A DNA stretch of 63,998 nucleotides, the filler included, from Basidioascus undulatus (lineage: Eukaryota), in the NCBI GenBank assembly GCA_000826855.1. It is 7 parts of 7 records of this genome, joined end to end, with 100 filler letters (N's around TTAATTAATTAA, not from the genome) between each part and the next. Parts side by side here need not be neighbours in the genome. Positions count along the whole stretch, not along the records: positions 45,971 to 55,028 come from JTLS01001305.1; 6 more parts are not named here. One strand, 5' to 3'. The stretch's first letter is position 1. The number at the start of each line of letters is the position of its first letter. The position numbers and the translations under genes are program-made. Below, one piece after another: positions 51,060 through 51,587 of the stretch. The notes beneath the pieces were generated by a model. It was not told the origin of the DNA. It saw nothing but the letters and a program-made list of their open reading frames with translations, and did not search any database.

Positions 51060-51587
51060 GGTTAATCGGCATGCAGGTGGGCATAAAGTCTTGCGGCCTG
51101 CCCGTCTTCTCTCTTGCTCTCCAGGGTGCGTGTGCACGCAGGTCGGACGTTGTTTATCGGTGAGTCTAGTCTTTCTACTATGCAATTCGGTCCATTTCCC
51201 CACTCCCCTCCGCCATATCCCCCCAGTACACCGTGCTCACCGTTCCCCACCGTCCCCTCGCCATGCAGATGTCTCGACCTGTCCTGCACAATCTCGACTG
51301 ATTGGAGGCGTTTGCCCCCCGTGGGTAGCCTTAGCGGGCAGAACGTATATCTCCTGTCGACGCTACCCGCGATAGACCGGCGGCTCCGGCGGTCCTGTTC
51401 CATCCCAAACACCGCCCCCCGTCCGGACCTGGAGACCGCGCCCTCCTCGGAAGGTTGTGTCGACTTCGGCGATGGCTGAGAGCGGTGGGTTCTGGGAGCG
51501 TTGGGCCGTGCGTGGCCCGGTATATTCCTAAGTCTTCGCGCAGCCCCTGGGCAGTGCTCGTTGGGCAAAACCATACCGGGTATATCC
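51060..51587 (+). ncRNA. snR30: U17/snR30 H/ACA snoRNA (18S rRNA processing), intron-interrupted
   Basis: Exact m1 ATATTCCTA (51522-51530) and m2 AAACCAT (51568-51574) sit on opposite sides of a 3' hairpin closed by GCCCGGT/ACCGGGT. m2 is 7 nt before an ATA (ACA-box variant, 51582-51584). Further long stems lie upstream. The 5' end is approximate and no canonical H box was identified. Confidence 0.82.

What the first reader, a model, noticed from the sequence alone, without database searches (positions are those of the whole stretch)
51060..51587. Hidden U17/snR30 snoRNA gene split by spliceosomal intron(s) that sit inside its 5' hairpin
Seen: exact U17/snR30 motifs m1 ATATTCCTA (51522-51530) and m2 AAACCAT (51568-51574), with m2 7 nt before an ATA box, in a terminal hairpin. 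A canonical intron (GTGAGT 51160, GCTCAC 51235, CAG 51268) lies next to the apical loop of a long stem: TGTGCA..GCAGGTCG-GACGTTG (51131-51152) pairs with CG|ATGTC-T-CGACCTGT..TGCACA (51158-51159 joined to 51269-51290). The apical pairs only form across the splice junction. Established: m1/m2 are the invariant U17/snR30 elements that pair with 18S rRNA; spliceosomal introns are known in some fungal snRNAs and U3. Inference: this is an independently transcribed, spliced snR30 that ORF-based annotation misses and covariance searches may miss because of the insertion. I do not know whether intron-containing snR30 has been described.
Basis: partly seen in the sequence, partly recalled or inferred. 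Interest (0 to 1): 0.8.

Follow-up and report, generated by a model that had tools for sequence, protein, structure and literature searches.

The report
Fungal snR30 gene with likely intron
An unannotated gene for the essential ribosome-assembly RNA snR30/U17 lies between two fungal protein genes, and its 5' part seems to be interrupted by a normal-looking intron, which would be unusual for this class of RNA but could not be checked against RNA data.

Summary
All motifs are at the stated coordinates. The m1/m2 pair occurs once in the window and in 0 of 100 shuffles. Rfam SNORA73 aligns to the 3' hairpin at 51517-51579 with 35.8 bits and E 7.9e-7. This is below the gathering score of 74, so a default scan finds nothing.

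A 109-nt, C-rich, unstructured insert (51160-51268) has GTGAGT, GCTCAC and CAG. It sits two base pairs from the tip of a 21-bp stem formed by its flanks. The joined hairpin folds at -31.0 kcal/mol (z -5.8, 0 of 1000 shuffles). It is the most stable exon junction among 425 motif-defined intron candidates in the window.

The locus is intergenic and non-coding. It lies about 150 bp from the divergent Spc19 start codon.

The gene is very probably a real snR30, and an intron in its transcription unit is likely. Two points are unproven: that splicing occurs, and that the spliced hairpin stays in the mature RNA. No RNA run, genome or relative could be obtained. No canonical H box exists, and only one intron candidate is supported. 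I found no paper on an intron in snR30; U3 introns are the known analogue.

The parts
51082..51088 (+). TATA-like element CATAAAG, about 30-35 nt upstream of the first structured bases. The putative transcription start near 51115 is inferred from it.
   Evidence: Read from the sequence. The Spc19 ATG at 50968 on the minus strand leaves only about 150 bp of shared upstream DNA. This is inference, with no transcript data.
51116..51159 (+). Putative exon 1 (5' end approximate). It holds the 5' arm of hairpin A (51131-51152), the loop TTTAT (51153-51157) and the first two bases of the 3' arm (51158-51159).
   Evidence: Folds. G/C-balanced composition.
51160..51268 (+). Candidate spliceosomal intron of 109 nt: 5' splice site GTGAGT (51160-51165), branch-like GCTCAC (51235-51240, A at 51239, 29 nt before the AG) and 3' splice site CAG (51266-51268).
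   Evidence: Motifs. Composition is C 0.44, G 0.15. It folds at -8.1 kcal/mol over 109 nt, z 0.14, so it is unstructured. Five inferred introns of the neighbouring gene are 47-85 nt long and pyrimidine-rich. Splicing itself is not shown.
51269..51290 (+). 3' arm of hairpin A: ATGTC, bulged T, CGACCTG, TCC, TGCACA. It begins at the first base after the candidate 3' splice site.
   Evidence: In the unspliced RNA the outer helix still forms with the insert looped out (pair probabilities 0.93-0.97).
51319..51371 (+). Hairpin B, a 53-nt irregular hairpin of typical H/ACA hairpin size.
   Evidence: -28.3 kcal/mol, z -4.26, 0 of 200 shuffles fold as well. Inverted repeat I3.
51372..51377 (+). AUAGAC, the nearest thing to an H box. 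It follows hairpin B directly but has C instead of A at position 6.
   Evidence: No exact ANANNA occurs between 51019 and 51530. This assignment is inference only.
51377..51426 (+). Hairpin C, a possible internal hairpin.
   Evidence: -20.9 kcal/mol, z -1.99, 8 of 200 shuffles fold as well. Weak.
51516..51580 (+). snR30/U17 3' hairpin. Lower stem CCCGGT/ACCGGG. The internal loop carries m1 ATATTCCTA (51522-51530) and m2 AAACCAT (51568-51574).
   Evidence: Rfam SNORA73 alignment at 51517-51579, 35.8 bits, E 7.9e-7. Pattern unique in the window. Inverted repeat I5. Fold.
51582..51587 (+). AUA box (51582-51584), a variant of ACA, plus 3 nt to the predicted mature 3' end at 51587.
   Evidence: Sequence. 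AUA is a documented ACA variant (passages read in PMC7991803 and PMC6984369). The 3' end itself is inferred.
51588..51630 (+). Pyrimidine-rich 3' flank (86% C+T) ending in TTGTAG. Its role is unknown; it could be a processing or termination region or an unused 3'-splice-like site.
   Evidence: Composition. No YTNAY branch motif lies between 51298 and 51639.

Best explanation
This is the snR30/U17 gene of a basidiomycete-like fungus. snR30 is the essential box H/ACA snoRNA that docks on 18S rRNA through its m1 and m2 elements.

The gene is transcribed on its own from a short promoter shared with the divergent Spc19 gene. Transcription probably starts near 51115. The precursor carries one ordinary spliceosomal intron (51160-51268). 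The intron interrupts the 3' arm of the first 5' hairpin, two base pairs below the loop.

The exon flanks pair with each other before splicing, which holds the two splice sites at the base of a looped-out, unstructured intron. After splicing they form a continuous 21-bp hairpin.

The mature RNA would be about 360 nt. In order it would contain spliced hairpin A, hairpin B, a degenerate H-like box, internal hairpin(s), the m1/m2 3' hairpin, an AUA box and 3 final nt.

Shown: the motifs, the 3' hairpin match, the stem and its statistics, the intron-like composition, and the intergenic non-coding context. Inferred: transcription, splicing, the RNA ends, and retention of hairpin A in the mature RNA.
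For: snR30 identity:
- SNORA73 hit on the 3' hairpin at E 7.9e-7.
- The m1/m2 pattern matches once in the window and in 0 of 100 shuffles.
- m2 lies 7 nt before an AUA box, the same spacing as in the Rfam consensus. AUA is an accepted variant.

Intron:
- GTGAGT, GCTCAC and CAG are present, with the branch A 29 nt from the AG. This is inside the 6-36 nt fungal range quoted in PMC5832005 section 3.2.
- The insert has C 0.44 and G 0.15 and folds at -0.07 kcal/mol per nt. The downstream RNA has G about equal to C and folds at -0.40 per nt.
- The splice signals abut the stem arms exactly.

Stem:
- -31.0 kcal/mol, z -5.8, 0 of 1000 shuffles.
- Lowest energy among the 425 motif-defined candidates.
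- 12 of 5532 random junctions match it.
- The best junction hairpin of a 64-kb window lies 230 nt upstream of its only snR30 hairpin, on the same strand.

Context:
- Spc19 (minus strand, ATG at 50968) and a gephyrin-like gene (minus strand, 51945-54347) flank the locus.
- No ATG ORF longer than 19 aa precedes or crosses the snoRNA in the spliced RNA.
- None of 6 local ORFs hits Pfam.

Precedent and size:
- 138 of 310 fungal U3 genes carry introns in their 5' stem-loop, broadly across Basidiomycota.
- Human U17 has two similar-sized stems before its H box (review passage).
- Known fungal snR30 sizes are 296, 325 and 606 nt.
Against: - There is no direct evidence of transcription or splicing.
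- No canonical ANANNA H box exists anywhere from 51019 to 51530. Only near-matches lacking the final A are present: AUAGAC, AGACCG, AGAGCG, ACAAUC.
- The Rfam score (35.8) is far below gathering (74), and nothing in the 5' region matches any Rfam model.
- The branch motif GCTCAC departs from the fungal RCTRAY consensus at one position.
- GTGAGT is only mildly enriched in this window: 46 observed on both strands against 39 in a reversed-sequence control. A single occurrence is therefore not proof.
- The random-junction null is not vanishing (12 of 5532).
- The exon-exon stem forms without splicing too, so it does not by itself require splicing.
- About 300 nt downstream of the intron would already suffice for a fungal snR30, since the N. 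crassa RNA is 296 nt. Exon 1 could therefore be a discarded leader.
- No relative was available to test conservation or covariation.
Confidence: 0.5

Rival explanations
1. The intron is real, but it lies in a 5' leader that is discarded. After splicing, the perfect 21-bp hairpin is a processing signal, for example for an RNase III enzyme followed by 5'-3' trimming. Mature snR30 then starts near hairpin B (about 51315) and is about 270-300 nt long.
For: Hairpin B is a strong, H/ACA-sized hairpin (z -4.26) followed directly by the best H-like box. The stretch 51291-51587 is 297 nt, close to the 296-nt N. crassa RNA that PMC5824354 equates with snR30. A long, nearly perfect duplex is what RNase III enzymes cut; this point is recalled knowledge of yeast Rnt1-dependent snoRNA 5' processing and comes from no call.
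Against: The loop is UUUAU, not the AGNN tetraloop of the yeast Rnt1 signal (recalled). Yeast snR30 keeps its capped primary 5' end (review passage on Tgs1). Human U17 has two stems ahead of the H box, so an extra stem is not foreign to the family. There is no data on this organism's RNase III.
Confidence: 0.17
2. snR30 is hosted in an intron of a short non-coding host transcript. GTGAGT at 51160 is joined to a 3' splice site downstream of the snoRNA (TAG 51630 or CAG 51762), and the snoRNA is trimmed out of the excised intron, as in vertebrates.
For: Vertebrate U17 is intronic in a non-coding host gene (review passage). The 3' flank 51588-51630 is 86% pyrimidine and ends in TTGTAG. CTTAC at 51746 precedes a CAG at 51760-51762.
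Against: No YTNAY branch motif lies in the 330 nt before TAG 51630. This model leaves unexplained both the 21-bp pairing of exon 1 with the bases directly after CAG 51268 and the exact abutment of CTCAC/CAG on the stem arm. A second exon would run antisense into the 3' end of the convergent gephyrin-like gene, whose coding alignment ends at 51945. In N. crassa, 16 of 20 H/ACA genes are intergenic.
Confidence: 0.1
3. There is no splicing. The 109-nt insert is a lineage-specific apical expansion of a long 5' hairpin, and the splice-like motifs are chance.
For: Yeast snR30 has a greatly expanded, dispensable 5' hairpin (review passage). The stem forms with the insert looped out. GTGAGT is common in this GC-rich window, with 46 copies on both strands.
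Against: The insert is G-poor and essentially unstructured (-8.1 kcal/mol over 109 nt, z 0.14), unlike expansion segments of stable RNAs. GTGAGT starts 2 nt after the last 5'-side pair, and CAG ends exactly at the first 3'-arm base, with a branch-like motif at the right distance. My rough estimate for this conjunction arising by chance is below 1e-3; this is inference, not a computed test.
Confidence: 0.1
4. The locus is a dead or silent copy, or the m1/m2 hairpin is a chance look-alike. The functional snR30 gene lies elsewhere in the genome.
For: The Rfam score is below gathering. There is no canonical H box. The genome could not be searched for a second copy.
Against: Both invariant motifs are exact and correctly placed in a hairpin with the right spacing to an AUA box (E 7.9e-7; 0 of 100 shuffles). 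In two collection scans, all 161 pattern matches outside eukaryotes lacked the flanking stem: 47 in viral contigs and 114 in prokaryote contigs. This shows that chance matches do not look like this one.
Confidence: 0.05

Closest known systems
snR30 (yeasts) / U17 = SNORA73 (vertebrates), Rfam RF00045, clan CL00078
   Same: A 3'-terminal H/ACA hairpin with exact m1 AUAUUCCUA and m2 AAACCAU on the two sides of the internal loop. m2 lies 7 nt before the terminal box. The 5' domain is long and variable. The predicted size, about 300-360 nt, falls within the fungal range of 296-606 nt.
   Different: The terminal box is AUA instead of ACA. No canonical H box is present. The 5' domain has no similarity to Rfam models. 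The gene appears to contain an intron. In contrast, yeast snR30 is an intronless independent gene and vertebrate U17 itself lies inside host-gene introns.
Intron-containing U3 snoRNA genes of fungi (S. cerevisiae snR17A/B, N. crassa, many Basidiomycota; PMC5832005)
   Same: An independently transcribed, processing-type snoRNA gene is interrupted by one short canonical GT-AG intron inside its most 5' stem-loop. The intron length (109 nt against a mean of 92 nt) and signals (GTRWGT, CAG) match.
   Different: U3 is a box C/D RNA and this one is box H/ACA. The four literature searches bearing on this returned no paper describing an snR30/U17 intron; I read listings and abstracts only, except for the papers cited by passage.
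Spliceosomal introns in fungal snRNA genes (U6 of S. pombe; U1, U2, U5, U6 of some basidiomycetous yeasts)
   Same: An mRNA-type intron sits inside a stable, structured non-coding RNA gene in an intron-rich fungus.
   Different: Those RNAs are themselves parts of the spliceosome, which suggested reverse splicing as the origin of their introns. snR30 is not part of the spliceosome. This comparison is recalled and was not checked in a call.

Membership tests
U17/snR30 box H/ACA snoRNA | Invariant m1 (AUAUUCCUA) and m2 (AAACCAU) on opposite strands of the internal loop of the 3'-terminal hairpin | tested here: met
   Exact motifs at 51522-51530 and 51568-51574, flanked by the lower stem CCCGGU/ACCGGG. 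The pattern is unique in the window and matches in 0 of 100 shuffles. The motifs are listed as invariant in Table 1 of PMC7601244.
U17/snR30 box H/ACA snoRNA | ACA box (or an accepted variant) at a fixed distance after m2, 3 nt from the 3' end | tested here: met
   AUA at 51582-51584, 7 nt after m2, the same spacing as in the SNORA73 consensus. AUA is an accepted variant. The real 3' end could not be tested.
U17/snR30 box H/ACA snoRNA | 5' hairpin followed by an H box (ANANNA) in a single-stranded hinge | tested here: not met
   There is no ANANNA between 51019 and 51530. Strong hairpins exist (A: z -5.8; B: z -4.26), but only near-H boxes follow them (AUAGAC after B). A degenerate box may function, which is untested.
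U17/snR30 box H/ACA snoRNA | Reaches the curated Rfam gathering score | tested here: not met
   35.8 bits against 74; only model positions 148-211 of 219 align.
U17/snR30 box H/ACA snoRNA | m1/m2 complementary to the organism's 18S rRNA expansion segment 6 | not testable with these tools
   There is no rDNA in the window and no genome is held.
Spliceosomal (GT-AG) intron | 5' splice site GTRWGT-like | tested here: met
   GTGAGT at 51160. The neighbouring gene's inferred introns use the weaker sites GTTCGT, GTCAGT, GTAGGA, GTGAGG and GTGCGT.
Spliceosomal (GT-AG) intron | Branch motif RCTRAY 6-36 nt upstream of a YAG acceptor | tested here: inconclusive
   GCTCAC matches 5 of 6 positions, with C at the R position. 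The branch A at 51239 is 29 nt before the G of CAG 51266-51268. The consensus and range come from PMC5832005 section 3.2.
Spliceosomal (GT-AG) intron | Exon-exon junction observed in RNA | not testable with these tools
Spliceosomal (GT-AG) intron | Position and signals conserved in relatives while the interior diverges | not testable with these tools
   No relatives were obtained: one unrelated metagenome hit and none among prokaryote or viral contigs. The best protein relatives of the neighbouring gene are only 44-49% identical.

The most novel reading that the evidence does not exclude
An H/ACA snoRNA gene, the essential snR30/U17, needs the spliceosome to assemble its own functional fold. 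The two halves of a helix are encoded on either side of an mRNA-type intron. The exon-exon helix pre-forms and presents the splice sites. This would extend the 'intron inside a snoRNA' phenomenon from U3 to the H/ACA class. It would also suggest that in intron-rich basidiomycetes independently transcribed snoRNA genes keep an intron because expression depends on splicing.
Probability: 0.45. Interest if true: 0.6.

Novelty: new variant of a known kind. Interest (0 to 1): 0.45.

Why it matters
snR30/U17 is the one H/ACA snoRNA required for 18S rRNA processing in all eukaryotes studied. Even so, ORF-based annotation and a default Rfam scan both miss it in this genome.

If the intron is real, it would be the first described case I could find of a spliceosomal intron inside an H/ACA snoRNA. 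It would parallel the widespread U3 introns of fungi. It would also offer a simple system for two questions: why stable Pol II-made non-coding RNAs in intron-rich fungi retain introns, and how exon-exon pairing affects splice-site choice.

Practically, it shows that snoRNA searches in basidiomycetes should use local (hairpin-level) models and allow for introns.

Tried and rejected
RNA evidence: no RNA holder was listed for window 49800-53200 and the single search was used, so read laying could not be run.

Whole genome: none is held. I therefore could not search for a second copy, test 18S pairing or find other intron-bearing snoRNAs.

Relatives:
- A metagenome scan with GGT-m1-N(28-50)-m2-RCC gave one locus, L048. 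It has no ACA/AUA box at the right place and only 122 nt of upstream sequence. I judged it unrelated. This used the single metagenome scan.
- No match combined a paired flank with a stable inner hairpin. In one search, 9 of 114 passed one loose filter. No match or 44 reached 5 of 5 flank pairs, and I judged none U17-like.

Earlier findings of this scan: nothing for this genome, nothing by sequence, and one irrelevant note by words.

Rfam:
- The 5' region 51040-51516 gave 0 matches at E up to 10.
- The post-intron region alone still matched only the 3' hairpin.

Protein atlas look-up for taxonomy was uninformative. The bacterial promoter/terminator scan is irrelevant here and found nothing.

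The 8-bp inverted repeat TCTCCAGG/CCTGGAGA (51118-51125 / 51428-51435) could close a 5' domain. About three such 8-mers are expected by chance in 611 nt (my estimate), so I gave it no weight.

The complementarity of the 5' splice site (CGGTGAG) to the branch region (CTCACCG) (I1) largely follows from GTGAG being the reverse complement of CTCAC. I did not interpret it.

Thermodynamic folding of the whole RNA does not recover the open m1/m2 pocket. This is expected for protein-held H/ACA pockets and I did not count it against the reading.

In one search my pair list for the middle helix was one base out of register. Only the MFE structure and the outer-helix probabilities from that call are used.

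Full report
WHAT IS THERE

- GTGAGT at 51160
- GCTCAC at 51235
- CAG at 51266-51268
- ATATTCCTA at 51522-51530
- AAACCAT at 51568-51574
- ATA at 51582-51584

A default Rfam scan of the whole window at gathering thresholds finds nothing. In E-value mode the SNORA73 (U17) model aligns to 51517-51579 on the + strand with 35.8 bits and E 7.9e-7. The alignment covers model positions 148-211 of 219, which is the 3' hairpin carrying m1 and m2. The pattern m1-N(28-50)-m2 occurs once in the window and in none of 100 shuffles.

The lower stem CCCGGT/ACCGGG closes the pocket. m2 ends 7 nt before the AUA triplet, the same spacing as in the Rfam consensus. AUA is a documented variant of the ACA box (passages read in PMC7991803 and PMC6984369). 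m1 and m2 are the invariant snR30/U17 elements (PMC7601244, Table 1 and text passages).

As a negative control on the pattern, I examined 47 matches in viral contigs and 114 in prokaryote contigs. None had the combination of paired flanks and a stable inner hairpin. The 3' hairpin is therefore a genuine snR30/U17 module.

CONTEXT

On the minus strand to the left lies a DASH-complex Spc19 gene (Pfam PF08287, E 1.8e-16). Its likely start codon is at 50968.

To the right, also on the minus strand, lies a gephyrin-like MogA-MoeA fusion gene. It aligns to fungal homologues from 54347 down to 51945.

The snR30 locus is thus an intergenic, + strand unit. It is divergent from Spc19 and convergent with the molybdenum-cofactor gene.

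Only about 150 bp separate the Spc19 ATG from the first structured bases. A TATA-like CATAAAG sits at 51082-51088, so a transcription start near 51115 is a reasonable inference.

None of six local ORFs hits Pfam. In the spliced RNA no ATG ORF longer than 19 codons precedes or crosses the snoRNA.

The best homologues of the neighbouring gene are basidiomycete proteins at only 44-49% identity, from Sporobolomyces, Rhodosporidiobolus, Microstroma, Ceraceosorus and Armillaria. The organism is therefore a basidiomycete-like fungus without a close sequenced relative in that database.

THE INTRON CANDIDATE AND THE STEM

Joined at 51159^51269, bases 51131-51152 pair with 51158-51159 plus 51269-51290. 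This gives a 21-bp hairpin with a 5-nt loop at -31.0 kcal/mol. The insert breaks the 3' arm two pairs below the loop, so the apical helix exists only across the junction.

Statistics on the stem:
- Against dinucleotide shuffles of the 57-nt hairpin, z is -5.8 and 0 of 1000 shuffles fold as well.
- Against 5532 random junctions from both strands of the window with the same 109-nt gap, 30 reach -31 kcal/mol. Of these, 12 also have at least 19 cross-junction pairs.
- Among the 425 candidates defined by GTNNGT, a YTNAY branch and a YAG acceptor on both strands of the window, this one has the lowest junction energy.

The most stable exon-junction hairpin of a 64-kb window lies 230 nt upstream of its only snR30 hairpin, on the same strand. 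That is very unlikely to be coincidence.

The insert itself looks like an intron of this genome:
- Its composition is C 0.44 and G 0.15. It folds at only -8.1 kcal/mol over 109 nt (z 0.14).
- The downstream 319 nt have G about equal to C and fold at -126 kcal/mol.
- Five introns inferred in the neighbouring gene, by frame restoration and homologue alignment, are 47-85 nt long and pyrimidine-rich. Their donors are weaker: GTTCGT, GTCAGT, GTAGGA, GTGAGG and GTGCGT.
- The branch-like GCTCAC departs from the fungal RCTRAY consensus at one position. Its A is 29 nt from the AG, inside the 6-36 nt range quoted for fungi (PMC5832005 section 3.2, read in full).

In the unspliced RNA the exon-exon stem is still predicted to form with the insert looped out (outer helix pair probabilities 0.93-0.97). 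This would place the two splice sites side by side.

WHAT ARGUES FOR CAUTION

- There is no transcript evidence. No RNA run was listed for the locus, no genome is held, and no relative could be fetched.
- There is no canonical ANANNA H box anywhere between 51019 and 51530. Only near-matches lacking the last A are present.
- The best near-match is AUAGAC at 51372-51377. It directly follows a second strong hairpin, B (51319-51371; -28.3 kcal/mol, z -4.26, 0 of 200 shuffles).
- The 5' region matches no Rfam model. Starting the search after the insert does not lengthen the SNORA73 match. The covariance miss is therefore due to a diverged 5' domain rather than to the insertion.
- GTGAGT is only mildly over-represented in the window: 46 copies on both strands against 39 for the reversed-sequence control.
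- The stem does not strictly require splicing.

MOST LIKELY MECHANISM

I propose an independently transcribed snR30 gene whose precursor contains one ordinary spliceosomal intron in the first 5' hairpin.

The predicted mature RNA is about 360 nt. In order it contains hairpin A (spliced), hairpin B, a degenerate H-like box, internal hairpin(s) including 51377-51426, the m1/m2 hairpin, an AUA box and 3 final nt.

Two similar-sized stems ahead of the H box are also the layout of human U17 (review passage). Fungal snR30 RNAs of 296 nt (N. crassa ACA12, equated with snR30 in PMC5824354), 325 nt (S. pombe) and 606 nt (S. cerevisiae) bracket the predicted size.

I put about 0.85 on the locus being a real snR30 gene. 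I put about 0.65 on the insert being spliced out of its transcript. I put about 0.5 on the full statement, which includes retention of the spliced hairpin.

RIVALS

(a) A spliced but discarded 5' leader whose hairpin is a processing signal, with the mature RNA starting near hairpin B (0.17).

(b) snR30 hosted in a longer intron that uses GTGAGT and an acceptor downstream of the snoRNA (0.10). This is weakened by the lack of any YTNAY motif before TAG 51630 and by the unexplained stem.

(c) No splicing, with the insert as an apical expansion (0.10). This is weakened by its unstructured, G-poor composition and the exact abutment of the signals on the stem arms.

(d) A silent copy or chance match (0.05).

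COMPARISON WITH WHAT IS KNOWN

As an snR30/U17, the locus meets the m1/m2 and terminal-box criteria. It fails the canonical H box and the Rfam gathering score. Pairing to 18S could not be tested. It is best filed as a divergent member of the family.

The closest precedent for the gene structure is U3. [quoted passage not shown]

The four searches aimed at an intron inside snR30/U17 returned no paper describing one. The three other completed searches addressed related questions and also showed none. I saw listings and abstracts only, except for passages or sections of PMC7601244, PMC5824354, PMC5832005, PMC3596301, PMC2780460, PMC7991803 and PMC6984369. Subscription-journal papers are not covered. 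The supplements of the fungal snoRNAome paper, which I did not open, may hold basidiomycete snR30 models.

VERDICT

If true, the finding is a new variant of a known kind: an intron-bearing snoRNA gene, now in the H/ACA class. It is of moderate interest, and the decisive RNA and comparative tests are straightforward but could not be run here.

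Noticed in passing
window 50209-50968, minus strand: DASH-complex Spc19 gene (Pfam PF08287 on the exon 50209-50697). A likely first exon starts at ATG 50968, followed by an intron. It shares a promoter region of about 150 bp with the snR30 unit.
   Followed up: partly
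window 51945-54347, minus strand: Gephyrin-like MogA-MoeA fusion gene (molybdenum cofactor synthesis) with about five short introns of 47-85 nt and unusually degenerate donor sites (GTTCGT, GTCAGT, GTAGGA, GTGAGG, GTGCGT). The best homologues are only 44-49% identical, so the organism has no close relative in the protein database.
   Followed up: partly
window 51588-51630, + strand: An 86% pyrimidine tract ending in TTGTAG lies directly after the predicted snR30 3' end. It looks like the 3' end of an intron but has no branch motif. It may be a termination or processing region.
   Followed up: partly
window 51145-51164 and 51236-51255: The 5' splice site region (CGGTGAG) is complementary to the branch-site region (CTCACCG) within a 20-nt, 75% complementary inverted repeat. 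Predicted pair probabilities in the unspliced RNA are about 0.2-0.3. It may be trivial, because GTGAG is the reverse complement of CTCAC.
   Followed up: partly
window 53322-53381 (+) and 22949-22888 (-): Two other motif-defined intron candidates also give junction hairpins with 19 cross-junction pairs (about -27 kcal/mol). The first lies antisense to the gephyrin-like gene. Neither was examined further.
   Followed up: no
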